Source of the DNA: a virus
Direction: 5' to 3' (one strand)
Length of the DNA: 35,788 bases
IMG/VR virus record: IMGVR_UViG_3300031539_000144
Coordinates: 1 to 35,788 of that record
The position numbers were made by a program, and so were the translations under genes. The notes beneath the pieces are model-generated. The model was not told the origin of the DNA and did not search any database. It was given only the letters and a program-made list of their open reading frames with translations. This document shows positions 3,881-25,933 of this stretch, one piece after another (position 1 is the first letter of the stretch; every line of letters starts with the position of its first letter).

Positions 3881-4155
3881 GCTTGATCCTCATAGTATTT
3901 AACAGCTTTTAGTATTGAGCGTATAAAAGATTTGTATCCCTCATTTATGCCCATAGTAACCTGGTCGTCGCCTCTGGATACAGTCGGCGACCAGATTAAA
4001 ACCTCTTTCCATCGATCTAATAGTTTCTGCCCATGCTCTGAGCTGAACACATTATAAACCAAAGACGAATCCATTAGTGCTTGTTTGATAAACGCATCCT
4101 GTGAAGCCTTGGCATCCTCTTCCATTTTATCTAGGGGGTGTCTATCGTTATTCAA
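3877..4155 (-). CDS. Hypothetical protein between portal and scaffold genes
   Basis: 92-aa ORF that overlaps both neighbours (8 nt and 4 nt), consistent with translational coupling. Confidence 0.65.
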   Translation of the reverse strand: MNNDRHPLDKMEEDAKASQDAFIKQALMDSSLVYNVFSSEHGQKLLDRWKEVLIWSPTVSRGDDQVTMGINEGYKSFIRSILKAVKYYEDQA

Positions 4156-5689
4156 TTGGTGGTCCTCCCTGTGGTTGTTGCTGTGCTTGCTGTTGCTGCA
4201 TGATCATCTTAGTGGCCTGCTCTATCTGCTCAGGTGAACGCGCAAGCTCTTCAGGTAGATTAAGATTACGCTGTAAGAACTGCGGCACAAACTCTAGCGC
4301 AGCTCCAAGCATTTTAACTTCATCCGGTAACTGTTGCATGGCATTTAAGAACACGAACAAGTGATCGATGTTTTCTGTTTGCTCAGCACTTGCCAGCGGC
4401 GATGACATTTTGAGCGTAACCTCACGGCCATCAACCTCAATAGGCGGTATCTTGCCAGCCAATGCGAGGATTTTACTTACACGCGCCACCAATGGAAATA
4501 CAAACTCAGACTGCAATCGACCAAAGTTAGCGCCTCGTTTCTTGAGCATATCCTGCTGACGAATAAGGTTCTCTGTTGCACTGCGCACAGGATCAGACAG
4601 CTCGCCTAGCGGATCAGCAAAGAACACCTTCTTGATGTTGTTTTGCATGTCTTCCATGATGAACTGACCCACGCGCAAATCACCGCCTACTTGCATTGGC
4701 ACCAATGGAGGGTTGTTAGTATCAGCAACAGGCATGATGATGCCTGGCTGTATTCGCGCTGAATGCGGATTAAATATACCATCACTAGCGCCCAACATTG
4801 GAGGCGTCATCGTAAGGGCTGCGTTCTGTAACATGAACTCTTTAACTTTATTCAGCGTGCGGACATCAGCCATAGCCATGTCGGCAGGACCACGACCGTA
4901 TGTTTCGCCAGACACCTTGGACCATCGGTAAACAATAGCGACTGGACTATCGCCATACGATTGGTGGAATATAATCTCATCATCCCACATCACGACCTGG
5001 TGATAAGTTTTATCTTTGAAGTTGAACACCTGTGAGCCATCGATAATATCAACGTCAGACGTGGGGTTTTCTCTTACTGTTCGCTCCTGCTTAGCGTTTA
5101 GCTTAGCTTCAGGAAACTTGAGCATTATCTCTTGGGCTTTGATCGAGTGCTTACGAAATACTGTATGCACCTTGGCCATCGATGTAGGCTCAGGATATAA
5201 CTCAGGCAAAGGAATCGCGGTGAATTTAAGTAATGGCTCGTCGATGTCGTTACCTTGCTCAACAAGAAGGCAGCCCATACTAATAGCCATGTCTTGATGG
5301 GATAGGTTTATTTGGCTAGAAAAGTCCGAGTGTGACAGGTACTTGAAAAACGTACTCGTTGCGGCTTCTAACGCCTCATTAGCTGCATCTTGCTCATCGT
5401 CCTGAATATCACTACCAGCTTCATACTTCATCCACTTGGTGGACTCTGGAGTAATAGATGATGTGATCACAGATACGAACGTTTGCAATGCCTCAACGCC
5501 AGTAGAATCGTAAAGGTGTCGATTCTTACGCTGACCAGGCGAGTGAAAGTTAAACGTCTCACGATTTGGATTAAAGAACTCATACATATCTTGCAGAGTT
5601 GAGCGCCACAATTCACGCCTTTCACTAGCAGACGCGAATCGTTTCTTTATTTCTTTGGCCCCGCCAAGGCCATTAGGCAATGTAATCAT
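4148..5689 (-). CDS. Portal (head-to-tail connector) protein
   Basis: 513 aa with a Gln-rich C-terminus (QQQQAQQQPQGG). It lies downstream of terL and upstream of the scaffold and capsid genes, the canonical order. Confidence 0.8.
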   Translation of the reverse strand: MITLPNGLGGAKEIKKRFASASERRELWRSTLQDMYEFFNPNRETFNFHSPGQRKNRHLYDSTGVEALQTFVSVITSSITPESTKWMKYEAGSDIQDDEQDAANEALEAATSTFFKYLSHSDFSSQINLSHQDMAISMGCLLVEQGNDIDEPLLKFTAIPLPELYPEPTSMAKVHTVFRKHSIKAQEIMLKFPEAKLNAKQERTVRENPTSDVDIIDGSQVFNFKDKTYHQVVMWDDEIIFHQSYGDSPVAIVYRWSKVSGETYGRGPADMAMADVRTLNKVKEFMLQNAALTMTPPMLGASDGIFNPHSARIQPGIIMPVADTNNPPLVPMQVGGDLRVGQFIMEDMQNNIKKVFFADPLGELSDPVRSATENLIRQQDMLKKRGANFGRLQSEFVFPLVARVSKILALAGKIPPIEVDGREVTLKMSSPLASAEQTENIDHLFVFLNAMQQLPDEVKMLGAALEFVPQFLQRNLNLPEELARSPEQIEQATKMIMQQQQAQQQPQGGPPIE

Positions 5690-6418: not shown

Positions 6419-6554
6419 ATACCATAGACGGAATCTTGCCGCCTGCCACTACATCTATACGCTGATATATCCAGCCACCAGGAACGCGTATTATTGTATA
6501 AATTCCTTTTATTAGCGGCTCATGCAGCTCTAGATCGTATATTGACTTAGCCAT
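6381..6554 (-). CDS. Small hypothetical protein (57 aa), absent from the ORF track
   Basis: The ATG at 6554 shares one nucleotide with the terL stop (TAATG). Hand translation gives MAKSIYDLELHEPLIKGIYTIIRVPGGWIYQRIDVVAGGKIPSMVFVPYSDEFNAPA. It fills an otherwise empty 135-nt gap. Confidence 0.55.
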   Translation of the reverse strand: MAKSIYDLELHEPLIKGIYTIIRVPGGWIYQRIDVVAGGKIPSMVFVPYSDEFNAPA

Positions 6555-7843
6555 TAAAATACCTCAAAGCTTGAATATGCTTGAACCGGCTGACTCATTG
6601 CCGCCCTATCTGGCAAAGCTAATCTATCTTGCCAACCCATTGCAATATATCTAAATGAGTCGGCCCCATGACTTGACCAATCATGAAGCGGTGTATCACG
6701 GAACATGCCGCGCTTCTCGTCGTAATCATATCGATACTGAGATAAGCATTCTATCCCGTACTTGCATCGTGTCTCATCTATCCACACGCGAGAAAACAGC
6801 TTTCTTGCTGCTTCGATACCATCAGCCACCTTATGCTGCTTGACAACACGAAAGTTAATTCCCATTTCTCGAGCTGTATCACGTCGAGATTTGCCATTCA
6901 TTAGTTCACGCACTTCAATATCATGTGGTGCAAAGTGGTCACCGTATGAAACGCCGTTGTCGCGGGCGAAGTTTTTTAGATATTGAATGTAGTGAGCCAT
7001 GCCTTCACCTGAGTTCTGATAGTAGTTGATCAGGCGAATCTCTTTTCCTATCGCCTGAACAAACCATATCGTCATTGCATCACTAATACCCAAATCCCAA
7101 AACGTATGAACGTCGATCTTTGTTTCTATTGGCACAAACCCTATGCGCTTAGTGGCCATTGCTGCGGCCATCTCTCTTCCGTATACGGCACCCTTGATTG
7201 CAGCAGTCCATGAACATTCATATTCTTGCTCATACTCTTCGGGTGTCATTATCTCTTGAGCGTCGATCAATTCCTCTTCTTTCACTATCTTTGTTTCTGA
7301 GGCTTTGTAGGTCTGAGTGAACCACTTATCGGATGAGTCGGCCTTACTGTATAGCTCGTAGAATGAGTTCTTCCCCTTTGGTGTACCTATGAATATTGCC
7401 CAACCTTCACGATCGGACAATGCAGGCCTCAATACTTCACCAAATAAACTAGATGGCATTTGTGCATACTCATCAAGAACAGCACCATCCAAATATAATC
7501 CACGTAGCGCATCAGGTGAATCACAACCAAATAATTGAATGCGCCCATCGTTAGGGTAATCAATACGTAATTCAGACTCATTGATCTTTATGTCGGGTAT
7601 GCCGCGAGAGTAATGCTTTAGATAATCCCATGCGATAGTTTTAGCTTGCTTATACGTTGGGGCTAGGTAGGCGTAGCGTGGACGCTCTTTAGTAGATGTG
7701 AGGCACTGCTTTAACAGCTCATTGATAGCGAAAACCGTCTTGCCAAAGCGCCTATGACACACAATTACATTCCAACGCATTAGGTCAGAATGTATTTTCT
7801 TTTGCAGCTCACGCGGCTTGTACGGGATTACTATTGTTGCCAT
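6554..7843 (-). CDS. terL: Terminase large subunit
   Basis: 429 aa with a Walker A-like HRRFGKT, a Walker B-like LDGAVLDEYAQM, and a C-terminal nuclease-like half with conserved acidic residues. It is preceded by an overlapping small basic ORF. Confidence 0.85.
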   Translation of the reverse strand: MATIVIPYKPRELQKKIHSDLMRWNVIVCHRRFGKTVFAINELLKQCLTSTKERPRYAYLAPTYKQAKTIAWDYLKHYSRGIPDIKINESELRIDYPNDGRIQLFGCDSPDALRGLYLDGAVLDEYAQMPSSLFGEVLRPALSDREGWAIFIGTPKGKNSFYELYSKADSSDKWFTQTYKASETKIVKEEELIDAQEIMTPEEYEQEYECSWTAAIKGAVYGREMAAAMATKRIGFVPIETKIDVHTFWDLGISDAMTIWFVQAIGKEIRLINYYQNSGEGMAHYIQYLKNFARDNGVSYGDHFAPHDIEVRELMNGKSRRDTAREMGINFRVVKQHKVADGIEAARKLFSRVWIDETRCKYGIECLSQYRYDYDEKRGMFRDTPLHDWSSHGADSFRYIAMGWQDRLALPDRAAMSQPVQAYSSFEVF

Positions 7844-11510: not shown

Positions 11511-11873
11511 TTAGTTTGCCCATGACTTATCGTCAAGCATCTGCTGCGTTGGAATATCTCGCGTACTCTCACCCTGAATGAGCCGCCCCTCTATTCGTGC
11601 CGCATTCTTTAGCGCCTCAAATTCTCCCGCAAGCGCATTTTTTGTATAGGCGATATTAATTCCCTTCCAGCCCTTTGTTGTAACAGTCCAATCTATTAGC
11701 TCTGTCGGCGTCATACCAACCTCAAAAGCTCTTAATGATTCATTCATAGCTTGATAAAAAGCCCTTGGTGTAAGCGGGCACTTCATGTTTATTCGATGAT
11801 CAATAAAACCCTTAGCCGCCTCAATGTCGATTTCTATATCTAATCCGTCTAGCTCGATGTTTTTATATTTCAC
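11511..11873 (-). CDS. Hypothetical protein
   Basis: 120-aa track ORF. The segment HRINMKCPLTPRAF...GWKGI vaguely recalls C-terminal domains of phage replication-associated proteins, but I cannot support a call. Confidence 0.6.
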   Translation of the reverse strand: MKYKNIELDGLDIEIDIEAAKGFIDHRINMKCPLTPRAFYQAMNESLRAFEVGMTPTELIDWTVTTKGWKGINIAYTKNALAGEFEALKNAARIEGRLIQGESTRDIPTQQMLDDKSWAN

Positions 11874-12099: not shown

Positions 12100-12667
12100 T
12101 AAGCTTTTCCAGTTGATTATTTGCCTTAGCTGTAGCAACAACCATTTCGGCGAACTTATTCGCTACATTCTCGCGAATACCGGAATTAACCGCTTTTGTT
12201 ATCTGGTCATCAATATCCTTACTGAATCCTTTCATCTTCTCAGAAACTATCTCTTCTACCCGCTGACCTGTAAGATAGTTGATTAGTGTCATTTTCGCAT
12301 TATAGTTGTTGCTAAATGCCCCTCTCTCATCGACCATCTTTTCTAATGTATTATCAAATGTTCGCTTGATTAAATCCCTTATGTTCAGCGATTCTTTAGG
12401 GTCTCCCCACTTGTCAGTAACTGTGACCTCGTTCTCCAGCCAGTCATCAGCAAACGCTATTGCTTTTGATTCAATTGATGATCTTGCTTTAGATATAGCC
12501 TCATCAATTGCCGCATCTATTTTCTTTGATGCCTCTTTTTCAACCTTATCTAAGCACTGCTTGCTAATTGACGACCTTACGCCATTTATAATTTGATGCT
12601 TAACTTCTTCATCAATAGAGCCATCTTCTTCAATCCAATCGATATCTACAGTTATATTCAATTTCAT
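12092..12667 (-). CDS. Hypothetical protein (191 aa), first gene after the non-coding island
   Basis: Track ORF with AAGAGAG upstream of the ATG at 12667. It looks helical and charged, with no recognised motif. Confidence 0.7.
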   Translation of the reverse strand: MKLNITVDIDWIEEDGSIDEEVKHQIINGVRSSISKQCLDKVEKEASKKIDAAIDEAISKARSSIESKAIAFADDWLENEVTVTDKWGDPKESLNIRDLIKRTFDNTLEKMVDERGAFSNNYNAKMTLINYLTGQRVEEIVSEKMKGFSKDIDDQITKAVNSGIRENVANKFAEMVVATAKANNQLEKLNA

Positions 12668-13008
12668 AATATTTACTCTCTTAGTTAAATTAATAAGTTT
12701 TAGACAATAGGTTCCCCCTTTCTCCCTACTGGTAAGAATACAAGGCTTACTTATAATGCCTGCTTGTATACCATCAGCTTTATGGGAGTAGCACTCTCCA
12801 GTTAGTCGTCGGCAGTCAAAGGGAGACTGTATTCCATTTTTCCGAAAGCGCCGTATGAATTCAATCCGTGAATTACTTTGGTTGGCTGTAAATTTAAGGT
12901 TGCTGCTCAGTTAATGTCAGGCTGACCGGTTCGGTTTAGTTTTAAGTCGTGACCGTACGCGCATCTAATGGACTGCGTAGGAAGGGAATAGTGGATTATT
13001 AGAAAGGG

Positions 13009-13106
13009 CGCCTAGCAAGGGAATCGAACCCTTATAGCTTATCTTCTTGAACCATCGTTAATTGGAATCGAACCAAAAAGAATTACACTTTTACCAAAAT
13101 CTAGGC
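13009..13106 (-). other. tRNA-like element with two T-arm signatures (not a canonical tRNA)
   Basis: The minus strand carries GGTTCGATTCC twice (plus-strand ggaatcgaacc at 13020-13030 and 13064-13074). The 3' copy has a 5-bp T stem (AAGGG/CCCTT) followed by GCTAGGC, which pairs with GCCTAG at 13101-13106. The enclosed 98 nt cannot be folded into D and anticodon arms by hand. Confidence 0.4.
13063..13090 (+). promoter_or_regulatory. Candidate plus-strand promoter inside the non-coding island
   Basis: TTGGAA (13063-13068), a 16-nt spacer, then TACACT (13085-13090). It pairs with the plus-strand terminator at 13279-13312 to define a possible transcript of about 210 nt. Confidence 0.3.
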
Positions 13107-13108
13107 AC

Positions 13109-13196
13109 AAAAAAAGGCTATTTAATAACAAGCCAGTTGGTAAAGGCTGATCAGGAGTACGGTGAATCCGCGCCTCTGACCTGTTATTAAATAACC
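13109..13196 (-). terminator. Long structured hairpin plus U7 (terminator of a candidate small RNA)
   Basis: 12 perfect base pairs join 13119-13130 (tatttaataaca) and 13182-13193 (tgttattaaata). The stem extends to about 16 bp only in the minus-strand RNA, through G:U pairs. The interior forms two short helices, giving a three-way junction. Seven U residues follow on the minus strand (plus-strand A run 13109-13115). Confidence 0.5.
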
Positions 13197-13252
13197 CTTA
13201 CCGCACTTAAATCATTTCTAAAGACGTTACCACACGCCTTACTACATTTACT

Positions 13253-13280
13253 ATTTTACTATAACTGTATTACATTGCAA
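13253..13280 (-). promoter_or_regulatory. Candidate minus-strand promoter driving the structured RNA region
   Basis: TTGCAA (13280..13275), a 16-nt spacer, then TAAAAT (13258..13253). No ORF follows for about 590 nt. Confidence 0.45.
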
Positions 13281-13312
13281 GCCCTCTATTCGTTCGCAAG
13301 GGCTTTTTATTT
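13279..13312 (+). terminator. Plus-strand rho-independent terminator with no plus-strand gene upstream
   Basis: aagccct (13279-13285) pairs with agggctt (13299-13305) around a 13-nt loop, followed by TTTTTATTT on the plus strand only. It overlaps the stop codon of the 62-aa minus-strand ORF. Confidence 0.45.
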
Positions 13313-13495
13313 GGTTGAGACTCTATCAATCTCTTCGATAATTATTATCACTAGCCCGCACATGATAGCAATCAAAAGCCCCGTGCATAAAACTATAACT
13401 TTTCCCATCGCCATACCCATGATCGTTAAAATAATACCGCCGAAAGATTGCGCGCATATAAGTTTTAAGTTCTGTTTTTTTGTCCACTTTCTCAT
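13307..13495 (-). CDS. Small two-TM membrane protein
   Basis: 62 aa with two hydrophobic segments (FGGIILTIMGMAMGKVIVL and LLIAIMCGLVIIII). It lies downstream of the HTH gene in a two-gene unit. Confidence 0.6.
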   Translation of the reverse strand: MRKWTKKQNLKLICAQSFGGIILTIMGMAMGKVIVLCTGLLIAIMCGLVIIIIEEIDRVSTK

Positions 13496-13534
13496 AAATA
13501 CCTCTTCGTTGGTTAACCCTGTTAGCGCAGGGTT

Positions 13535-13750
13535 TTACTTTATCTCTTCGGTTTCACCAAGCTTTATAAACTCGCTCACCTTCATGTCAAGCTCTCCGCA
13601 AACAACCCTCAGCCTATCAAAGCTAATATTCTTTGTGTTGTTGCTGACAGCAGAAAGATAAGCGCTAGTAACACCAACTCGGCCAGATAGATCTCTTAGT
13701 GACATATCTTTATGTATCAACGCTATCTTTAGTGATTTTCCTATATTCAT
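13535..13750 (-). CDS. XRE/Cro-CI family helix-turn-helix regulator
   Basis: 71 aa. LKIALIHKDMSLRDLSGRVGVTSAYLSAVSNN is a textbook HTH_3 pattern. GAGGTG lies upstream of the ATG. It is the first gene after a terminator-promoter pair. Confidence 0.8.
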   Translation of the reverse strand: MNIGKSLKIALIHKDMSLRDLSGRVGVTSAYLSAVSNNTKNISFDRLRVVCGELDMKVSEFIKLGETEEIK

Positions 13751-20183: not shown

Positions 20184-20590
20184 TTCTTATTCACCCGTGC
20201 AGACCAGGCTTTGACGATGCCTTCGCCAGCACCGCCAAGGAAGTAAAACGCTAGAATCCATGCCACAGGATCACCGAGCGTTAAATTGTTCATGCTGGCC
20301 ACCTCTTTAAGCTGAGCAACGCGAAAATCAAACAATTCACCGTTTGAAGGAAACCAAATCATAGCCAACCATGTGCCAGCAATAAGAACATGGATAAAAA
20401 CGAATGGCGGAACAACAATCGCCACAGCTAAGCGCTGAACCTTTTTGAATGGTTCATACAGCTTCAGAAACATCATTTTAGCTTTAGATTTTTCCTCTGT
20501 CGTCTCCCACATTGCGTCGGCAGTATCCATTAAACCGCCAACAACTTTATCGGAACCGAAAATACTTCCCCAGAATCCAGCCATTACCAT
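20180..20590 (-). CDS. Holin-like membrane protein (three predicted TM segments)
   Basis: 136 aa with a charged N-terminal part followed by the hydrophobic segments LAVAIVVPPFVFIHVLIAGTWLAMIWF and VAWILAFYFLGGAG. It overlaps the endolysin stop. Confidence 0.55.
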   Translation of the reverse strand: MVMAGFWGSIFGSDKVVGGLMDTADAMWETTEEKSKAKMMFLKLYEPFKKVQRLAVAIVVPPFVFIHVLIAGTWLAMIWFPSNGELFDFRVAQLKEVASMNNLTLGDPVAWILAFYFLGGAGEGIVKAWSARVNKK

Positions 20591-20934
20591 CTACCTCTAT
20601 TAGTGCGTGTGTCGATATGCGTGAAAGTTGCGTATGCTTTCATTCCGTAATCGTCAGGGAAGCGTGTATTTAGGTATTCGTAAACCTCTGAAGCTGGCAC
20701 ATTGCGAACTACGATGTCAGCGGCACGACCGTAAAGATGCTGACTATTAGGTTTGCCGCCTTCATTTTCATTATGCTTTGCGCACCTGCACCCTGAGTTA
20801 ATTATAATCGGCTCATTGAACCATGCGCGCAATTCCTCAAGCACGTCAAGAAGCTCGGCATCGACAGTATCGAAACCGCATCCGCACTTACACTCGAATT
20901 CTTCACGCGTAAAATGTTTTGCTGGAAATGTCAT
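20584..20934 (-). CDS. Endolysin, zinc D-Ala-D-Ala carboxypeptidase-type peptidase (M15 family)
   Basis: 116 aa. FTREEFECKCGCG...INSGCRCAKHN...SQHLYGRAADI...THIDTR shows the H..D..H zinc-ligand layout of small phage M15 peptidases. Confidence 0.8.
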   Translation of the reverse strand: MTFPAKHFTREEFECKCGCGFDTVDAELLDVLEELRAWFNEPIIINSGCRCAKHNENEGGKPNSQHLYGRAADIVVRNVPASEVYEYLNTRFPDDYGMKAYATFTHIDTRTNRGRW

Positions 20935-21990: not shown

Positions 21991-22854
21991 GTGAGTAATA
22001 TCGTAGAATTCGTTCAAAATCAAGCAGCTCTATTTAATGAGTCGCTATCTGATGAGCGCATAACGTGGGCTAAAGAATCTCAGTTTGCCATTCAAGTTTT
22101 GCAAGAAAATAAGTTTTTGCGTGAGACAGCTGAAAAGAATCAATTAAGCCTACAAAATGCGATCATAAACGTTTCGGCTATAGGTATTAGTCTAAACCCT
22201 GCTAACAAGCATGCATATCTGGTGCCAAGAGGCGGCAAAGTATGTCTTGACATTAGCTACATGGGATTGCTGCACCTTGCCATGGCAACAGGCTCTATCA
22301 TGTTTGCTGAATGCAATATCGTTTACGCGAATGATAATTTTAAGCGTGTTGGCGTTGGCATGCCCCCAGTTTTTGATGTTCAAGAATTCACAGACAGAGG
22401 TGCTATCGTCGGTGCGTACTGCACAGCAAAAACATGCGATGGTGACTATTTAACCGAAGTGATGAGTCTTGCAGAAATCAAAGAAACCGAAGCAACAAGC
22501 AAGGCGAATAACGGCCCATGGAAAACCCACTGGAAAGAAATGGCACGTAAAACAGTTGTTAAGCGCGCATCAAAGTACTGGCCAAAGGTTGATCGTCTTG
22601 ACCAGGCTATTCATCATTTAAATACTGATGCCGGTGAAGGCCTTACAGTTTTATCGCAAGAAAAAGAAGTCCCTAGCGTTATTGATAACGATCAAAAAAT
22701 GGAATTAATAGCAGCATGTAAAGATCATGGCGTGAGCATCGATGCGCTATTGAAAGCTGCCAGAGTATCAAGCATCGACGAAATAAATGCAGGACGATTT
22801 CAAGGCGCTCTAGGCTGGGTTAAAAAACAGGTGAAAGAAAATGATAATAGTTAA
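21991..22854 (+). CDS. recT: RecT-family single-strand annealing protein
   Basis: 287 aa. AISVSAIGISLNPANKHAYLVPRGGKVCLDISYMGLLHLA and WKTHWKEMARKTVVKR fit the RecT pattern. It is followed by a nuclease and SSB. Confidence 0.8.
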   Translation: MSNIVEFVQNQAALFNESLSDERITWAKESQFAIQVLQENKFLRETAEKNQLSLQNAIINVSAIGISLNPANKHAYLVPRGGKVCLDISYMGLLHLAMATGSIMFAECNIVYANDNFKRVGVGMPPVFDVQEFTDRGAIVGAYCTAKTCDGDYLTEVMSLAEIKETEATSKANNGPWKTHWKEMARKTVVKRASKYWPKVDRLDQAIHHLNTDAGEGLTVLSQEKEVPSVIDNDQKMELIAACKDHGVSIDALLKAARVSSIDEINAGRFQGALGWVKKQVKENDNS

Positions 22855-23482
22855 CTGCGAGCAAGGGACAAAAGAATGGCTCGAGGCGCGGGCAGGATGC
22901 ATTACCGCGTCAATGTTTAAAGATGTGCGCAACACTCTAAAATCAGGAAAGAACAAAGGCGGGTACAGCAAGAAGGCCGACGATTACGCTTTTCATCTTG
23001 CGTGCGAAAGAATAGCAGGCGAGCTTCTAGACGATGATCAGTTTGTAACGTGGCAGATGAAGCGCGGCAACGATCTAGAGCCTGATGCAAGACTAGCGCA
23101 TGAAACATCAATGGGAATACTTGTAGAGCAGTGCGGCTTTGTGATGACCGACGATGGCAAGTTCGGAGCTTCGCTTGATGGCCTTATCGATAAAACAGGC
23201 AGTAGCGAATACAAATGTTTTACAGCTCCAAGCTCGATAAAGCCGATTCTGCTAGACAAAGATTTAAGCTCTATTACTGACCAAATGCAAGGCGGAATGT
23301 GGATAACCGGAAAGGCTTATTGCGACTTCGTTTTGTATTGTCCGCAACTAAAAAAGATCGGGCACGAATTAACAATCATCACAGTGTATCGCGACAACGA
23401 ATACATTGAGGGACTAGAAAGCGACTTGCTTAAATTTGATAAGCACGTTGAAAATTACGTTGAATTACTGGGGAACAAATAA
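22841..23482 (+). CDS. YqaJ / lambda-exonuclease-type recombination nuclease (PD-(D/E)XK)
   Basis: 213 aa. The N-terminus QGTKEWLEARAGCITASMFKDV is the YqaJ signature, and DGLI...SEYKC fits the D...E-x-K core. It overlaps the recT end. Confidence 0.8.
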   Translation: MIIVNCEQGTKEWLEARAGCITASMFKDVRNTLKSGKNKGGYSKKADDYAFHLACERIAGELLDDDQFVTWQMKRGNDLEPDARLAHETSMGILVEQCGFVMTDDGKFGASLDGLIDKTGSSEYKCFTAPSSIKPILLDKDLSSITDQMQGGMWITGKAYCDFVLYCPQLKKIGHELTIITVYRDNEYIEGLESDLLKFDKHVENYVELLGNK

Positions 23483-23943
23483 TGTCAAACGATCTAAATC
23501 AATGCAATTTTATTGGAAGACTAGGGAAAGATCCCGAAGTCAAATACACGCAAAGTGGTGCACAGATATGCAATTTTAGCATTGCTGTTGGTAGTACATG
23601 GAAAGATAAAACGACAGGACAGAAACAAGAAAGAACGGAATGGATAAACATTGAATCGTTCGGAAAGCTTGCGGAAATTTGCGGGCAGTATTTAAAAAAA
23701 GGATCAAAGGTTTTTGCTCAGGGGGAATTTGTAACTCGTAAATGGCAAGATCAAAGTGGCAATGATCGTTATTCAACATCAATACGCTTAACGAATATGC
23801 AGATGCTTGACTCTCGTAGCGATACGCCAGCGCAAGCGCCACAGCAAATACCGCAGGCGCCGCAAGCACCGCAGGCACCACGCACGCACAGCGCGCCACC
23901 GCCTCCAGACATGGACGCATTCGATGATGCCATCCCATTTTAA
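23482..23943 (+). CDS. ssb: Single-stranded DNA-binding protein
   Basis: 153 aa. It aligns by eye with E. coli SSB (GRLGKDPEVKY, ERTEWINIESFGKLAEICGQYLKKGSKV, TRKWQDQSGNDRY) and has a Pro/Gln-rich linker and an acidic tail ending DDAIPF. Confidence 0.9.
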   Translation: MSNDLNQCNFIGRLGKDPEVKYTQSGAQICNFSIAVGSTWKDKTTGQKQERTEWINIESFGKLAEICGQYLKKGSKVFAQGEFVTRKWQDQSGNDRYSTSIRLTNMQMLDSRSDTPAQAPQQIPQAPQAPQAPRTHSAPPPPDMDAFDDAIPF

Positions 23944-23974
23944 TAACAGCCCTTCGGGGCTATAGGTGAGAACG

Positions 23975-24178
23975 ATGTTTCGTGCATCAGCATATAGGTC
24001 TAAATATTACAACGACTGGAGCAATGGAGACGCTTGCTTTCTTGATAGACCGCACATTGCAAAACTGAGAAGCACGGGAAGGTGGGGTATTATCGGCTGG
24101 AAACTTGGATCGAACTCAGATGATCAAGGTAAGGCCGAAAAGTTCGCAAAACAACTTAACGATAAAAAAGCTAATTAA
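23975..24178 (+). CDS. Hypothetical protein
   Basis: The track ORF is 23966..24178. I prefer ATG 23975 because AGGTGA lies upstream. Confidence 0.55.
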   Translation: MFRASAYRSKYYNDWSNGDACFLDRPHIAKLRSTGRWGIIGWKLGSNSDDQGKAEKFAKQLNDKKAN

Positions 24179-24189
24179 ATAGGTGATAT

Positions 24190-24342
24190 ATGAGAACTTA
24201 CGAGAGAACGCGACATATAAAAACGCACGATAAATACGGTAACCTAATTGGTTACAAGCCAACAATGTTATCGCCGACAACTAAGGCGGCACGATTAAAA
24301 TGTACGCTATACAAAACGGAACGCTTTAAAAATGGAGCATAA
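24190..24342 (+). CDS. Small basic protein (50 aa), absent from the ORF track
   Basis: AGGTGA lies upstream of the ATG at 24190. Hand translation gives MRTYERTRHIKTHDKYGNLIGYKPTMLSPTTKAARLKCTLYKTERFKNGA. It overlaps the next start by 11 nt. Confidence 0.45.
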   Translation: MRTYERTRHIKTHDKYGNLIGYKPTMLSPTTKAARLKCTLYKTERFKNGA

Positions 24343-24595
24343 GATTTGCAGAAATGAAACTTGTCACAAAGCCGGTAAGTCTCAACCGCTGACAGCGTTC
24401 TATGTCAGTGTGGCAAATAATGACGGCCGACAATCTCGATGCATTGAGTGCGAGAAAGAAGCAAAGCGCATCAGGTATAAAGACGATTTGAAGCGATTCA
24501 CCGGGCACAATATCAATAACGATTCTGCGCTACCGAGTCATGTGGTCGGGATACTAAATAAAGCAACGAGGGCGATTCATGAGCATAACACTTGA
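24332..24595 (+). CDS. Hypothetical zinc-ribbon protein
   Basis: 87 aa with C-x4-C ... C-x2-C (CRNETC...CIEC). Confidence 0.6.
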   Translation: MEHKICRNETCHKAGKSQPLTAFYVSVANNDGRQSRCIECEKEAKRIRYKDDLKRFTGHNINNDSALPSHVVGILNKATRAIHEHNT

Positions 24596-24752
24596 AAATA
24601 AAGCAGTAATGAAAATAAAGTTAGAAAGCGGCAACTACTTGGAGTATCAATTTCCAAAAGGTGCCGACTTTAACCGTGTTGTTGATACGCTTATTGAACA
24701 GCGAGACATACTTAACGAGCCATTAAGGTTTAGCAATGATACAGAAGCGTAA
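24579..24752 (+). CDS. Small hypothetical protein (57 aa), absent from the ORF track
   Basis: ATG 24579. Hand translation gives MSITLENKAVMKIKLESGNYLEYQFPKGADFNRVVDTLIEQRDILNEPLRFSNDTEA. It bridges the two flanking genes with 17-nt overlaps. Confidence 0.45.
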   Translation: MSITLENKAVMKIKLESGNYLEYQFPKGADFNRVVDTLIEQRDILNEPLRFSNDTEA

Positions 24753-25380
24753 ATGCTCGATATGTAAGAATTCATACGATAAGAGCAAGTTGTTTTTTGT
24801 TGGCTTAAAGTGCTATTGCTCTGCCGAATGTGGCGCGGTCCTTGGGCTTGAGATTCTAAACAAAAAGGATCAGGCACGACTAAAGGAGTCAAAGAAAAAG
24901 GAGAAAGCCAAAAAGGTAGCGTTTTACAAGAAAGATTTGCCATGGCAGTTTAAAACAACGAAGGATGTTTTTAATCGAGTTAGAAAACTTCAAGAATACT
25001 TGTGGTTCGCGGTTCGCGGTATCGAGCCATATTGTATTTCATGCTTAAAAGAAAAAATGGATTGGGCGTGCGGTCATTATAAAACCGTTGGAAGTCAAGG
25101 TAACCTAAGATTTGATGAGGTCAACACATACCTACAATGTAACCGATATTGCAACAAGGGGTTGTCCGGTAATATCTCGGGCAACAAAAACACGATAGGA
25201 TACACTAAAGGATTGATTCATCGCTTCGGAGAAGAGCGCGGAGCGGAAATAATCGAATACTGCGAGACCAATACACAAATAAAAATATGGACGTGTGAGG
25301 AAGTCGAAGCGCTTAGAATGGATTATTTGGCAAAAGAGAAATTACTCAAAGTAGAGCTTGCAGGATATACGGAGCCATGA
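24736..25380 (+). CDS. ninG: NinG (Rap)-family recombination endonuclease
   Basis: 214 aa. It aligns by eye with lambda NinG: an N-terminal CxxC...C...C zinc cluster, then CISC...W.CGHYKTVGSQGNLRFDEVN...QCNRYCNKGLSGN...GYTKGLIHRFGEERGAEIIE. Confidence 0.8.
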   Translation: MIQKRKCSICKNSYDKSKLFFVGLKCYCSAECGAVLGLEILNKKDQARLKESKKKEKAKKVAFYKKDLPWQFKTTKDVFNRVRKLQEYLWFAVRGIEPYCISCLKEKMDWACGHYKTVGSQGNLRFDEVNTYLQCNRYCNKGLSGNISGNKNTIGYTKGLIHRFGEERGAEIIEYCETNTQIKIWTCEEVEALRMDYLAKEKLLKVELAGYTEP

Positions 25381-25508
25381 ACCCACTCGAGCAGTTACGC
25401 GCATTCTATCAAAGAAACCTACACTGGATTGAGCCGCTTGTGTCTGGCTTGATTCTTGGCGGGTTACTAGTCATGGTTTACTACAAATTAACGGCATGGT
25501 CATCATGA
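25377..25508 (+). CDS. Mini membrane protein (43 aa), absent from the ORF track
   Basis: ATG 25377 overlaps the ninG stop (ATGA), and its own stop overlaps the ninB ATG. The TM segment is LVSGLILGGLLVMVYY. Confidence 0.45.
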   Translation: MNPLEQLRAFYQRNLHWIEPLVSGLILGGLLVMVYYKLTAWSS

Positions 25509-25933
25509 GTAGCGTAATAGTAAAAGAACACAGGGAAATAAACGAGCTGCTGAATCGTGTCGATCATGCGTGCACACAGGCTTTATATAACGGGCCAGTG
25601 GAGGTGATAATCAAGCGTCCTGACAATCCGCGCAACTTAGATCAAAACGCTAAATTATGGGCAATGCTAAAAGATTTTGAGCCAATAGAGTTCAATGGTC
25701 GAAAGTGGAAAGCGGACCAGTGGAAGTGCTTTGTAACGTCTGCGCTCAATCAAGAAATGCCGGCTGTTGGGCTTCTCGGTGAACCTGTAACAATGACGAC
25801 TAGCACAAGCAAGCTAAGCAAAAAGAGATTTGCCGAACTGATAGAATTTATCTATTCAGTCGGCAGCGATAAGGGCGTTGTTTGGTCTGAGAAAGCTTTG
25901 GGTATTTACGATGAATACAATGCGGCGAAATGA
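25505..25933 (+). CDS. ninB: NinB (Orf)-family recombination mediator
   Basis: The track ORF is 25496..25933. I prefer ATG 25505 (ATGA coupling). LDQNAKLWAMLKDF, GRKWKADQWKCFVTSAL, STSKLSKKRFAELIEFIYSVGSDKGVVWSEKA aligns by eye with lambda NinB. Confidence 0.8.
   Translation: MSSVIVKEHREINELLNRVDHACTQALYNGPVEVIIKRPDNPRNLDQNAKLWAMLKDFEPIEFNGRKWKADQWKCFVTSALNQEMPAVGLLGEPVTMTTSTSKLSKKRFAELIEFIYSVGSDKGVVWSEKALGIYDEYNAAK

What the first reader, a model, noticed from the sequence alone, without database searches (positions are those of the whole stretch)
12668..13312. A ~640-nt protein-free island with opposed promoter and terminator signals, a long three-way-junction hairpin and two tRNA T-arm signatures
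Genes elsewhere in this genome overlap or are separated by a few nt, yet no ORF longer than about 15 codons exists here on either strand. The island holds five elements. (a) A minus-strand TTGCAA-16-TAAAAT promoter (13253-13280). (b) About 50 nt downstream, a hairpin with 12 perfect base pairs (13119-13130 with 13182-13193). The stem lengthens to about 16 bp only in the minus-strand RNA through G:U pairs, closes two inner helices and is followed by U7. (c) An opposing plus-strand signal set: TTGGAA-16-TACACT (13063-13090), then a 7-bp hairpin plus TTTTTATTT (13279-13312). No plus-strand gene lies between 559 and 21296. (d) Two copies of GGTTCGATTCC on the minus strand, 44 nt apart (13020-13030 and 13064-13074). 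The 3' copy forms a 5-bp T stem followed by GCTAGGC, which pairs with GCCTAG at 13101-13106 in an acceptor-like closure of a 98-nt element. (e) A further ~340-nt hairpin-rich leader (for example 12741-12770 and 12861-12877) before the ATG at 12667. Possible readings are one or two phage small RNAs forming an antisense pair, or a tRNA-mimic or decoy RNA. Long stem plus tRNA-like module is also the architecture of bacterial and phage Y-RNA-like molecules. A third reading is a relic attP-type tRNA 3' half left after loss of an integrase.
Basis: partly seen in the sequence, partly recalled or inferred. Interest (0 to 1): 0.65.

Follow-up and report, generated by a model that had tools for sequence, protein, structure and literature searches.

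The report
Phage noncoding RNA with tRNA mimic
The 640-base gene-free stretch of this phage genome encodes a conserved, folded non-coding RNA, with its own promoter, a long hairpin and a tRNA look-alike that has no anticodon; it belongs to a family seen in about twenty related metagenomic phages that matches nothing in Rfam, and its function is unknown.

Summary
The island is real: 639 nt (13306-12668) with no credible ORF. It is not junk. Its minus strand carries a sigma-70 promoter (13280-13253) that is conserved in relatives. Downstream lie a leader hairpin and a roughly 87-nt rod-like hairpin ending in U7 (13199-13109). Next comes a 98-nt tRNA-shaped element (13106-13009) with an acceptor stem and two identical T-loop hairpins but no anticodon arm. 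About 340 nt of conserved hairpins then run to the next gene's ribosome-binding site.

I found 19 distinct homologous 5' domains in metagenomic phage contigs. Their helices keep pairing through compensatory changes: 94% of cells are paired, and 11 pairs changed on both sides against 5.2 in shuffles. The stem that carries the tRNA-like element holds interchangeable inserts. One relative has a genuine tRNA-Trp there, others have unrelated hairpins, and two have almost nothing. One marine contig carries the same double-T-loop element with five compensatory pairs.

ARAGORN and Rfam find nothing. No match to Y RNA, tmRNA, GOLLD or ROOL was obtained, and the attP reading found no support. The plus-strand promoter is a by-product of the T-loop sequence. 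I read the island as a modular structured leader or ncRNA of the replication-gene module, and a new variant of phage tRNA-associated RNAs. The mechanism is inferred, not shown.

The parts
13279..13305 (-). GC hairpin (AAGCCC...GGGCUU) directly after the stop of the 62-aa ORF, overlapping the -35. It is preceded by an A-run, so on the + strand it reads as hairpin plus TTTTTATTT (to 13312). Probably a boundary or bidirectional terminator.
   Evidence: Read from the sequence. Similar hairpins (A-run, GC stem, U-rich tail) lie inside the islands of L023 and L055. Not listed by the terminator scan because the loop is 13 nt.
13253..13280 (-). Sigma-70-type promoter TTGCAA-16-TAAAAT. The inferred transcription start is about 13247-13245.
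   Evidence: Found by the scan. The hexamers are kept (TTGCAA or TTGAAA; TAAAAT or TATAAT) while the spacer sequence varies across relatives.
13221..13240 (-). Leader hairpin P0 (AAGGCGU-GUGGUA-ACGUCUU).
   Evidence: Helix 1: 88% of cells paired, and 2 of 6 pairs changed on both sides (G:C to A:U or C:G).
13215..13221 (-). P1 5' strand (UUAGAAA). It pairs with 13005-12999.
   Evidence: Predicted by RNAalifold. In 17 of 19 family members this duplex beats every other window in the next 400 nt. L039 has a matching A insertion and U insertion. In the window itself P1 is only 7 A/U-rich pairs, -5.0 kcal/mol, and is not distinctive.
13109..13199 (-). Long rod-like hairpin P2, followed by U7. It has a 20-bp AU-rich stem (13199-13180 with 13132-13113), then UCAG:CUGG, a conserved internal loop UUUACCAA (13143-13137), AGGC:GCCU and a variable apex. 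The U7 is at 13115-13109.
   Evidence: z = -4.4. Helices 3 and 4 are 96-100% paired, and 3 pairs changed on both sides. The G:U pairs fit only this strand. The hairpin is conserved at 76-93% identity in L021, L024, L027 and L028, and with a compensated 1-bp insertion in L079.
13009..13108 (-). Stem Pc carrying the tRNA-shaped insert. Acceptor stem: 13106-13100 with 13016-13010. D-like hairpin: 13100-13087, loop GGUA. Long arm: 13079-13041, tipped by a T-loop hairpin (13076-13062). T arm: 13033-13017. Discriminator G13009, then CCC.
   Evidence: Cloverleaf-like fold. Compared with L059 there are 3 compensatory pairs in the acceptor stem and 2 in the inner T hairpin, the loops are identical, and overall identity is 70%. 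Pc is present in all 19 members with 4-16 bp, and 5 of 8 pairs covary. ARAGORN and the Rfam tRNA model do not call it.
12999..13005 (-). P1 3' strand (UUUCUAA), part of the family-wide CCUUUCUAAAG motif.
12960..12977 (-). Hairpin CGC(A)GUC-CAUUA-GAUGCG, part of a module (to about 12927) shared with L019, L048 and L079.
   Evidence: BLAST matches at 83-97% identity and the alignment. G:U in the window is G:C in L048 and L079.
12858..12874 (-). Hairpin AAUUC-ACGGAUU-GAAUU.
   Evidence: L023 keeps the loop and changes 3 of 5 pairs on both sides.
12736..12771 (-). Hairpin GUAUACAAG...CUUGUAUUC with an inner AGGC:GCCU.
   Evidence: A:U becomes U:A in L023, and a U.U mismatch in the window is U:A in L019 and L023.
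12701..12733 (-). Purine-rich tract GUAGGGAGAAAGGGGGAACCUAUUGUCUAA. It is SD-like, is predicted to pair with UCUCCCUUU (about 12834-12826), and is followed by AUU where relatives have AUG.
   Evidence: RNAalifold. In L046 the homologous AAAGGGGGAAGCUAUG is the SD and start of a long ORF, and in L023 it starts an 8-codon mini-ORF.
12668..12680 (-). SD (GAGAG, 12680-12676) and spacer of the 191-aa gene, whose ATG is at 12667-12665.
   Evidence: RNAalifold pairs GAGAG with CUUUC; the support is weak.

Best explanation
The island is one non-coding transcription unit on the minus strand. It is a modular, structured RNA that serves as the long leader of the genes downstream, the phage's replication module.

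A sigma-70 promoter starts the transcript at about 13246. The 5' domain folds into three parts: a small hairpin (P0); a long rod-like hairpin with a sequence-conserved internal loop, ending in U7 (P2); and a stem (Pc) that acts as a slot for interchangeable inserts. In most relatives the leader and the sequence after the insert pair (P1), which clamps P2 and Pc into a junction.

In this phage the insert is a 98-nt tRNA look-alike. It has a normal acceptor/T-arm half, but the anticodon arm is replaced by a long arm tipped with a second T-loop hairpin, so it cannot decode. The remaining 340 nt fold into conserved hairpins. They end in an SD-like purine tract that is predicted to be sequestered, just before the next gene's own ribosome-binding site.

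Inferred mechanism (not shown). P2 with its U7 works as a leaky terminator or attenuator, so part of the transcripts end as an RNA of about 135 nt. Read-through transcripts carry the tRNA-shaped module, which recruits tRNA-processing enzymes (RNase P, 3' trimming). These release a stable 5' RNA and the tRNA mimic, and leave the mRNA with a structured 5' end. What the released mimic does is open; it might, for example, occupy tRNA-binding host factors.
For: Shown:
- The promoter is present and its hexamers are conserved while the spacer varies.
- There are 19 distinct homologous 5' domains. One of them (L079) was reached through a protein look-up rather than the DNA pattern.
- For the proposed structure, 94.3% of cells are paired against 91.1 +/- 0.3 in shuffles. 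Eleven pairs changed on both sides against 5.2 +/- 1.4 (0 of 500 shuffles reach this). Slid controls give 32-57% paired.
- Many invariant G:U pairs would be A.C on the other strand.
- The Pc slot holds a canonical tRNA-Trp(CCA) in L021, starting 12 nt after the U-run (ARAGORN; Rfam tRNA 61 bits). It holds odd 'tRNA-???' elements or plain hairpins in other members, and only 13-22 nt in L033 and L047.
- The window's insert recurs in L059 with 5 compensatory pairs and identical loops.
- The 3' domain has 6 compensatory pairs among the window, L019 and L023.
- A homolog of the O-like/Phg_2220_C replication gene lies 0.4-2.8 kb downstream in 9 distinct loci.

Inferred:
- Read-through of P2-U7, because a real tRNA with no room for a promoter of its own follows it in L021.
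- Processing by RNase P, because the acceptor/T minihelix is what that enzyme is known to recognise (established knowledge, not tested here).
Against: - There are no transcript data of any kind.
- In the window P1 is only 7 A/U pairs (-5.0 kcal/mol), and 21 of 134 control windows pair as well. The junction may therefore not form here.
- L060/L072 have the promoter, P0, P2 and U9 but no P1 partner and no insert. The 5' module can stand alone, as expected of a separate small RNA or a plain terminator.
- The invariant U6-9 tract after a strong stem is just what an efficient terminator looks like.
- The whole island folds no better than shuffled sequence. The tRNA-like element alone has only z = -1.8.
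- Evidence for the insert rests on two sequences. Evidence for the 3' domain rests on effectively two lineages.
- Alignment A3 was partly fitted to the structure: I chose the Pc register and cut out the insert interior. Members were also collected with an exact 19-mer from the 3' arm of P2, so the invariance of that arm is by construction.
Confidence: 0.5

Rival explanations
1. This is a separate trans-acting small RNA. The promoter, P0 and P2-U7 make a roughly 135-nt RNA that ends at its own terminator. A stem followed by a U-tail is the usual 3' end of Hfq-type sRNAs. The conserved internal loop UUYACCAACU or the leader would be the seed. The tRNA-like element and the 340-nt leader would be unrelated neighbours.
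For: - The U6-9 tract directly after the stem is invariant in all members.
- L060/L072 carry only this module.
- The internal loop and the leader are sequence-conserved beyond what pairing requires.
- P1 is weak in the window.
Against: - P1 pairing across the terminator is specific in 17 of 19 members, and L039 has a matched insertion on both strands.
- A real tRNA starts 12 nt after the U-run in L021 with no room for a promoter.
- No target for the loop was found in the phage beyond chance: 3 matches against 2.5 expected.
- The host is unknown, so host targets could not be tested.
Confidence: 0.2
2. This is ordinary punctuation plus debris: a promoter, an intrinsic terminator and decayed tRNA pseudogenes left in a recombination hotspot. 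The RNA would have no function beyond stopping and starting transcription.
For: - The slot content is highly variable and mosaic, and L067/L071 keep only half of P2.
- The cassettes fail the tRNA detectors.
- The island is absent from more distant phages that share the 191-aa gene.
Against: - Differences between the window's insert and L059's are concentrated in stems and are compensated, while the loops and junctions are identical. That is the signature of selection on an RNA fold, not of decay.
- Compensatory changes also occur in P0 and in hairpins of the 3' domain that have nothing to do with termination.
- The sequence of the P2 internal loop is conserved even in the most diverged member, L079.
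Confidence: 0.13
3. This is a GOLLD/ROOL-type large ornate phage RNA: the whole 450-950-nt unit folds into one elaborate architecture, possibly a multimer, that displays tRNA modules.
For: - It has the same habitat: phages, next to or containing tRNAs. GOLLD has a variable half that sometimes holds tRNAs (PMC12286853, PMC5737381).
- Relatives reach roughly 850-1000 nt and have several long stems, each capped by a tRNA-like cassette.
- The 5' and 3' end motifs co-occur across subtypes.
Against: - No Rfam GOLLD or ROOL match was found at gathering score or at E <= 5-10, in the window or in relatives.
- The interior is not conserved between subtypes.
- The window version is the shortest and lacks the family's most conserved core, ACACCGAACAAAACGAAACC.
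- The unit ends in an SD and a start codon, like a leader.
Confidence: 0.1
4. This is an antisense or primer-control pair in the ColE1 style: a plus-strand RNA starting near 13095 and ending at the 13279-13312 terminator would regulate the minus-strand RNA.
For: A canonical plus-strand hairpin plus T-run lies at 13279-13312. The island sits upstream of replication genes.
Against: - The plus-strand promoter scores 8/12, below the scan threshold. It is the reverse complement of the T-loop, and its -35 is lost in L059.
- The G:U pairs make the hairpins weaker on the plus strand.
- The hairpin directly follows the upstream ORF, and similar A-run/hairpin/U-rich elements occur inside other islands. 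This fits a bidirectional terminator.
Confidence: 0.04
5. This is a relic attP, that is, the 3' half of a tRNA left after loss of an integrase, or alternatively a Y-RNA-like (Ro-binding) RNA.
For: - The T arm plus acceptor 3' strand is tRNA-like.
- There is a 13-of-15 direct repeat of AUUCCCUUGCUAGGC 35 nt downstream.
- Long stem plus tRNA-like module is superficially the Y-RNA layout.
Against: - The 21-mer GGTTCGATTCCCTTGCTAGGC is absent from 185,579 species genomes.
- No integrase and no TROVE/Ro protein was found among the ORFs scanned.
- The element has both acceptor strands, and they covary.
- There is no Rfam Y_RNA hit.
- The tRNA-like part closes on its own acceptor stem and is not joined through a Ro-binding helix.
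Confidence: 0.03

Closest known systems
GOLLD and ROOL RNAs (large ornate RNAs of phages and prophages)
   Same: They are encoded by phages and lie next to tRNA islands. GOLLD has a conserved half and a variable half that sometimes contains tRNAs. Their function is unknown (PMC12286853, PMC5737381). Relatives of this island are of similar length (about 850-1000 nt) and carry tRNA or tRNA-like modules on stems.
   Different: There is no covariance-model match. Here the conserved part is the 5' domain. The unit ends in an SD and a start codon, so it looks like a leader. The window copy is short (about 580 nt). No pseudoknotted core has been demonstrated.
Phage tRNA gene clusters with co-transcribed stable RNAs (for example T4 species 1 and 2 RNAs; from memory, not checked here)
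   Same: Non-decoding stable RNAs are embedded among phage tRNAs, made from a common precursor and cut out by tRNA-processing enzymes.
   Different: Most slots here hold non-canonical tRNA look-alikes, and only one canonical tRNA was seen (L021). They sit on conserved extended stems in a conserved scaffold, in small phage-sized genomes and contigs (the window is 35.8 kb; relatives' contigs reach about 33-38 kb) rather than large myoviruses.
Bacterial and phage Y-RNA-like RNAs (YrlA)
   Same: They combine a helical stem with a tRNA-like domain that has a T-loop and D-loop mimic.
   Different: There is no Ro (TROVE) gene, no Ro-binding helix and no Rfam hit. From memory, the tRNA-like domain of YrlA is joined to the Ro-binding stem through the position of the anticodon stem, whereas this element closes on a normal 5'/3' acceptor stem.
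Lambdoid PR'-6S RNA-tR' arrangement, with tRNA genes just downstream in Stx phages such as 933W (from memory)
   Same: A constitutive promoter is followed by a short leader RNA ending in a terminator, then tRNA genes, then the operon that needs read-through. This phage has lambdoid genes: NinB, NinG, RecT and a Cro-like HTH.
   Different: No Q-like antiterminator was found. The genes downstream are replication and early-type genes, not late genes. The leader here has extra conserved helices (P0, P1, Pc) that a terminator does not need.
tRNA-like processing signals (MALAT1 mascRNA, mitochondrial tRNA punctuation) and viral 3' tRNA-like structures (from memory)
   Same: An acceptor/T-arm mimic is used as a handle for RNase P and other tRNA enzymes rather than for decoding.
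   Different: Those are eukaryotic or belong to RNA viruses. Here the mimic is internal to a bacterial phage leader and carries a second T-loop hairpin.
Candidate structured RNAs catalogued from IMG/VR (PMC10690425)
   Same: That screen reports thousands of short phage RNA motifs, including tRNA-like structures and terminators. Pieces of this family may be among them.
   Different: The catalogued motifs average 67 nt and are unnamed. I could not check whether any corresponds to P2 or to the insert. No description of the modular unit was found.

Membership tests
Canonical tRNA | Called by tRNA detectors (ARAGORN; Rfam RF00005 covariance model). | tested here: not met
   ARAGORN finds 0 genes in the window. 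No RF00005 hit at gathering score or at E <= 10 over 12500-13500.
Canonical tRNA | A 7-bp acceptor stem directly followed by a 5-bp T stem with a GTTCRANYC-type loop. | tested here: met
   GCCUAGA/GCUAGGC gives 6 bp plus an A.G mismatch in the window and 7 bp in L059, with 3 compensatory pairs. The T arm is AAGGG-UUCGAUU-CCCUU.
Canonical tRNA | A 5-bp anticodon stem with a 7-nt loop. | tested here: not met
   It is replaced by a 9-bp arm with an internal T-loop hairpin (13079-13041).
Canonical tRNA | A D arm with U8 and a 4-bp stem, and G18-G19 in the loop. | tested here: inconclusive
   The hairpin AUUUU-GGUA-AAAGU has GG in a 4-nt loop. It has no 8-9 linker and a non-standard stem.
tmRNA | A tRNA-like domain plus a tag-peptide reading frame; detected by ARAGORN or Rfam. 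| tested here: not met
   The element is only 98 nt.
Y RNA / YrlA | Match to the family model. | tested here: not met
   No Rfam hit at E <= 10.
Y RNA / YrlA | A Ro60/Rsr (TROVE) gene in the genome or next to the RNA. | tested here: not met
   The ORFs of 230 aa or more that I scanned with Pfam gave portal, TerL, MTase and RecT matches or no hit, and none gave TROVE. Smaller ORFs were not exhaustively scanned.
GOLLD / ROOL | Match to the Rfam covariance model (conserved core). | tested here: not met
   window; relatives L019-L024, L028.
GOLLD / ROOL | Phage or prophage location, next to or containing tRNAs. | tested here: met
   The genome is a phage genome (portal, TerL, major head). tRNA-Trp sits in the slot of L021.
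GOLLD / ROOL | A large multi-junction, pseudoknotted architecture supported by covariation over the whole length. | tested here: inconclusive
   Several covarying helices are seen, but no global model was built. The interior differs between subtypes.
Intrinsic (Rho-independent) terminator | A stable stem-loop followed immediately by a U-tract. | tested here: met
   P2 with G/C pairs at the stem base, then U7. The U6-9 tract is invariant in 19 members.
Intrinsic (Rho-independent) terminator | Transcripts actually end there. | not testable with these tools
   This needs 3'-end mapping. The tRNA 12 nt downstream in L021 argues for at least partial read-through.
Sigma-70 promoter | -35 and -10 hexamers at 16-18 nt spacing, conserved in relatives. 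| tested here: met
attP / tRNA 3'-half integration site | Identity to the 3' end of a host tRNA gene. | tested here: not met
   0 exact matches to the 21-mer in genome contigs and 0 matches to a 23-mer in viral contigs.
attP / tRNA 3'-half integration site | An adjacent integrase gene. | tested here: not met
   None among the 40 ORFs scanned.

The most novel reading that the evidence does not exclude
This island and its roughly 20 relatives define a new class of large modular phage RNAs of 450-1000 nt. A conserved scaffold (5' junction domain, long stems, conserved 3' end) displays interchangeable tRNA-shaped modules. Most of these cannot decode; in the window the module has two T-loops. The RNA would act as an assembly or as a decoy that engages the host's tRNA-handling machinery or tRNA-targeting defences. 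That would make it functionally parallel to, but unrelated in sequence to, GOLLD and ROOL.
Probability: 0.25. Interest if true: 0.8.

Novelty: new variant of a known kind. Interest (0 to 1): 0.6.

Why it matters
Phages are already known to carry tRNAs, and in a few cases giant RNAs of unknown function sit beside them. This locus offers a compact and tractable example of about 580 nt. It has a clear promoter, a defined slot that evolution fills with tRNAs, tRNA look-alikes or nothing, and an anticodon-less mimic with two T-loops whose fold is under selection.

If the mimic is excised and stable, it would be a natural case of a phage using tRNA shape for something other than decoding. That could be a processing handle, a way to stabilise RNA, or a decoy for tRNA-binding host factors or anti-phage tRNA nucleases.

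The swappable-slot architecture also gives a direct experimental handle: swap or delete the insert and see what changes. Finally, the family adds a candidate entry for RNA family databases and a marker for an uncultured group of metagenomic phages (contigs up to about 38 kb; the window has a podovirus-type head-tail connector).

Tried and rejected
1. tRNA or tmRNA gene: ARAGORN finds none.
2. Any Rfam family: none at gathering score, and only noise at E <= 10.
3. Homology in cultured phages: no blastn match in 50,697 GenBank phage records.
4. Conservation upstream of the 191-aa gene in prophage relatives (L001-L013) and in L080-L082: they have ORFs there instead, and none of those proteins matches the island in translation. 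The island is therefore neither a degraded copy of those genes nor tied to that gene.
5. Exact-protein look-ups returned only near-identical copies of the same phage (L014-L018), which are useless for covariation.
6. Three-way-junction model of the long hairpin: less supported than the rod model. The variable apex aligns poorly, so it is not excluded.
7. attP idea: no match in bacterial genomes.
8. More copies of the double-T-loop insert: the viral scan with the D-arm motif gave only a chance hit, L078.
9. Isolate genomes carrying the family, to name a host: none found.
10. A trans target of the conserved loop within the phage: at chance level.
11. A Q-like antiterminator or other informative neighbour: PHROGs and Pfam scans of 40 ORFs gave none.
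12. I considered a boxA/nut-like reading of the leader CGUCUUUAGAAA and a ColE1-like primer reading. Both rest on resemblance only and were not pursued.
Full report
WHAT THE WINDOW IS. The window is a phage genome or most of one. It carries a T7-type head-to-tail connector (4148-5689), a large terminase (6554-7843), a major head protein (821-1744), an endolysin (20584-20934), a C5 DNA methylase and a Cro-like HTH (13535-13750), all on the minus strand. On the plus strand it carries RecT, a YqaJ exonuclease, SSB, NinG and NinB. A metagenomic contig of 35,802 nt carries the same sequence.

THE GAP. The finding concerns the stretch between the stop of a 62-aa ORF (13309-13307) and the ATG of a 191-aa ORF (12667). 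This is 639 nt. It contains only mechanical TTG-start ORFs of 20-42 codons.

FIRST-PASS TESTS OF THE OBVIOUS READINGS.
- ARAGORN finds no tRNA or tmRNA in the window.
- Rfam release 15 finds nothing at gathering score and only noise at E <= 10 in 12500-13500.
- The region has no blastn match among 50,697 GenBank phage records.
- Folding shows that the long hairpin stands out (13105-13250: -48.3 kcal/mol, z = -4.4, 0 of 200 shuffles as good).
- The 98-nt tRNA-like element gives a cloverleaf-like minimum-energy fold but only z = -1.8.
- The whole island is no more stable than shuffles on either strand.
- The scan finds the minus-strand promoter TTGCAA-16-TAAAAT. It does not find the proposed plus-strand TTGGAA-16-TACACT.
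- GGTTCGATTCC occurs exactly twice in the window, 44 nt apart.

FINDING RELATIVES. Homologs of the downstream 191-aa protein in IMG/VR prophage-like contigs (63-68% identity) have protein-coding ORFs directly upstream. None of those proteins matches the island in translation. The named homologs are in Providencia, Proteus, Yersinia, Serratia and other Enterobacterales, often next to ERF and SSB genes. The island is therefore not a general companion of that gene.

Closer metagenomic homologs were decisive.
- L019 is 97.6% identical over 12977-12600.
- L023 is 82% identical over 12899-12600.
- L021 is 76% identical over 13290-13103, which covers the promoter, the leader and the long hairpin.
- Right after the U-run, L021 has a canonical tRNA-Trp(CCA) (ARAGORN; Rfam tRNA 61 bits). 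This is exactly the place where the window has its tRNA-like element.
- Both are followed by CCCUUUCUAA.

Pattern scans with short conserved strings then brought many more loci. After chance hits and duplicates were removed, there are 18 distinct pattern-derived 5' domains including the window's. A 19th, L079, is more diverged and was reached through a protein look-up. Some contig names point to marine samples (TARA) and one to a sediment metagenome. No representative genome of 185,579 species carries the element, so the host remains unknown.

ANATOMY OF THE 5' DOMAIN. All members share the following order:
1. A sigma-70-type promoter whose hexamers are kept (TTGCAA or TTGAAA; TAAAAT or TATAAT) while the spacer sequence varies.
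2. A leader, GUAGUAAGGCGUGUGG...GUCUUUAGAAA.
3. A long AU-rich hairpin.
4. U6-9.
5. GUGCC...[variable insert]...GGCAC.
6. CCUUUCUAAAG.

RNAalifold predicted that the leader's UUAGAAA pairs with UUUCUAA downstream of the insert (P1). It also predicted that the hairpin continues as UCAG:CUGG and AGGC:GCCU around an internal loop UUYACCAA.

I built alignment A3 from the 19 members. The insert interior was replaced by GAAA and the register of stem Pc was chosen by best pairing, so that part is fitted. On this alignment the structure P0 + P1 + P2 (rod) + Pc gives these results:
- 94.3% of cells are paired, against 91.1 +/- 0.3 in shuffles.
- 11 pairs changed on both sides, against 5.2 +/- 1.4.
- 34 cells changed on both sides, against 8.3.
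- None of these values is reached by any of 500 shuffles.
- Slid controls give 32-57% paired.

Covariation is strongest in Pc (5 of 8 pairs) and is also present in P0 (2 of 6) and P2 (3 of 24). However, the apex aligns poorly, and the one A-to-G change in L024, L062 and L069 is matched by U-to-C changes in both candidate partners. Alternative pairings are therefore possible.

Numerous invariant G:U pairs would be A.C on the other strand, so the RNA is read from the promoter's strand. One caveat applies: the 3' arm of P2 was the search pattern, so its invariance in the pattern-derived members is by construction. L079, found independently, keeps the stem through a compensated 1-bp insertion and keeps the internal loop sequence.

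P1. P1 itself hardly varies, but three observations support it:
- L039 has an extra A in the leader and a matching extra U in the partner.
- L063 has U:A changed to U:G.
- L048 and L079 shift register.

In 17 of 19 members the P1 duplex is stronger than the leader's duplex with any other window in the next 400 nt. In the window itself P1 is only 7 A/U pairs (-5.0 kcal/mol) and is not distinctive. L060/L072 have the promoter, P0, P2 and U9 with no P1 partner or insert, and L067/L071 keep only the 3' half of P2. The unit is thus modular and recombines.

THE SLOT AND THE WINDOW'S INSERT. Stem Pc is present in all 19 members with 4-16 bp. The stem plus its insert spans 21-101 nt in these members. 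In L033, which is outside this set, only 13 nt separate the U-run from the P1 partner. Contents of the slot include the following:
- A canonical tRNA (L021).
- Plain hairpins (L024 and others).
- Almost nothing (L033, L047).

Further cassettes elsewhere in these islands also look like tRNAs. ARAGORN calls some only as 'tRNA-???' with 2- or 4-nt anticodons (L028, L043, L055), and L021 has two with enlarged anticodon arms.

The window's insert (13106-13009) has these parts:
- An acceptor stem, GCCUAGA/GCUAGGC.
- A D-like hairpin with GG in its loop.
- A long arm tipped by UUGG-UUCGAUU-CCAA.
- The junction AUAAGC.
- A T arm, AAGGG-UUCGAUU-CCCUU.
- Then G and CCC.

One other sequence, L059 (a 38-kb TARA contig), has the same design at 70% identity. 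The differences lie mostly in stems, with three compensatory pairs in the acceptor stem and two in the inner T hairpin. The loops, the D-like hairpin and the junctions are identical. This argues for selection on the fold, not decay, although it rests on two sequences.

The plus-strand 'promoter' is the reverse complement of the inner T-loop (-35) and of the conserved AGUGUA (-10). In L059 the -35 becomes GCGGAA.

THE 3' DOMAIN. Window 12977-12927 holds a hairpin module shared with L019, L048 and L079. Window 12899-12668 is shared with L023 at 82% identity. RNAalifold on the window, L019 and L023 predicts 59 pairs, of which 6 changed on both sides. By my own reading of the window/L023 alignment, the hairpin 12874-12858 changes three of its five pairs on both sides around an invariant loop, and the hairpin 12771-12736 shows a further compensatory change.

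A purine tract GGGAGAAAGGGGGAA (12727-12713) is predicted to pair with UCUCCCUUU. In L046 the homologous tract is the SD of a long ORF whose AUG aligns with the window's AUU. In L023 it precedes an 8-codon mini-ORF. So the unit's 3' end is an SD/start region, which fits a leader. In the window that start has been lost, and the 191-aa gene follows with its own SD.

The 3'-terminal motif (CUUACCA...GGGGG..CCUAU) is shared with other subtypes. The most conserved core of the other subtypes (ACACCGAACAAAACGAAACC) and their extra cassette-bearing stems are absent from the window.

GENOMIC POSITION. In 9 distinct loci a homolog of the window's 120-aa O-like replication protein (Phg_2220_C in L021) lies 0.4-2.8 kb downstream of the element. 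The other neighbours vary. The island thus marks the start of the replication-gene module. No integrase or Q-like antiterminator, and no TROVE/Ro protein, was detected among the ORFs scanned. No bacterial genome holds the 3' half of the tRNA-like element.

INTERPRETATION. Shown: there is a promoter-driven, strand-specific, structured non-coding unit with a conserved 5' domain, a slot for tRNA-shaped or other inserts, and a structured 3' part ending at a ribosome-binding region. It belongs to a family that Rfam does not contain.

Inferred: P2-U7 is a leaky terminator, because a real tRNA with no room for its own promoter follows it in L021. The acceptor/T-arm mimic is a handle for RNase P and other tRNA enzymes that cut the leader. 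I put about 0.85 on 'functional structured RNA family' and about 0.5 on the full leader-plus-processing account.

The main rival is a self-contained sRNA of about 135 nt ending at U7. A 'promoter, terminator and debris' reading is disfavoured by the pattern of compensated changes. GOLLD/ROOL kinship is one of habitat and style only. The Y-RNA, tmRNA, attP and antisense-pair readings fail their tests.

Literature searches found the GOLLD/ROOL descriptions and a catalogue of 10,006 short viral RNA motifs (PMC10690425). They found no description of this modular unit. The search was limited to open-access text.

Noticed in passing
window 13279-13312: A GC hairpin preceded by an A-run and overlapping the -35 of the island's promoter. 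On the + strand it is a textbook terminator (hairpin plus TTTTTATTT), although no + strand gene lies nearby. Similar elements (A-run, hairpin, U-rich tail) sit inside the islands of L023 (about 2385-2425) and L055. These may be bidirectional terminators or insulators.
   Followed up: partly
window 12975-12989 and 13010-13024 (minus strand): A direct repeat matching at 13 of 15 positions: AUUCCCUUGCUAGGC (T-stem 3' half plus acceptor 3' strand) recurs 35 nt downstream as AUUCCCUUCCUACGC. It could be an alternative pairing partner for the purine tract at 12733-12713, or a scar of cassette insertion.
   Followed up: no
window 12701-12727; L046; L023 about 2950-2985: The SD-like tract AAAGGGGGAAC plus CUAUUGUCUAA is homologous to a functional SD and AUG of a long ORF in L046, and to an 8-codon mini-ORF (MENYIQIN) in L023. 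In the window the start is AUU and is followed by a stop two codons on. This is either a lost start codon or a tiny upstream ORF.
   Followed up: partly
L021 2150-2275 and 2290-2420; L028 2184-2283; L043; L055 761-856: Relatives carry further tRNA look-alikes on long extended stems. They have canonical acceptor, D and T arms, but the anticodon arms are enlarged or the loops are odd. ARAGORN either misses them or calls 'tRNA-???' with 2- or 4-nt anticodons.
   Followed up: partly
A2/A3 alignments: L024, L062, L069: A single A-to-G change in UUCAGAGG is accompanied by U-to-C changes in both possible partners (CUGG to CCGG and CUUUGAAC to CUUCGAAC). This hints that the hairpin may switch between two pairings.
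   Followed up: partly
L060/L072 and L067/L071: L060/L072 keep only the promoter, the leader hairpin, the long hairpin and U9. L067/L071 keep only the 3' half of the long hairpin, fused to an ORF. These look like recombination breakpoints inside the element.
   Followed up: no
window 11511-11873 and homologs in 9 loci: The O-like/Phg_2220_C replication protein is the only gene that recurs with the RNA element, always downstream. The 191-aa gene next to the island is found beside ERF recombinase genes (and in one case SSB) in two metagenomic contigs, and its named homologs are in Enterobacterales.
   Followed up: partly
window 21991-25933 (+): A lambdoid gene set (RecT, YqaJ exonuclease, SSB, NinG, NinB) sits in a genome with a T7-type head-tail connector, which makes the genome a mosaic.
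   Followed up: no
L037 (MWWI01000201.1) 425, 5318, 9561; L031: An unrelated sequence that happens to share the 19-mer search pattern occurs three times at roughly 4.2-4.9-kb spacing in one 13-kb contig. It may be a tandemly repeated unit or a concatemer assembly.
   Followed up: no
window 12647-12661 and 13255-13269: A 15-nt inverted repeat (87% complementary) links the promoter spacer/-10 region to the first codons of the 191-aa gene. It is probably chance.
   Followed up: no
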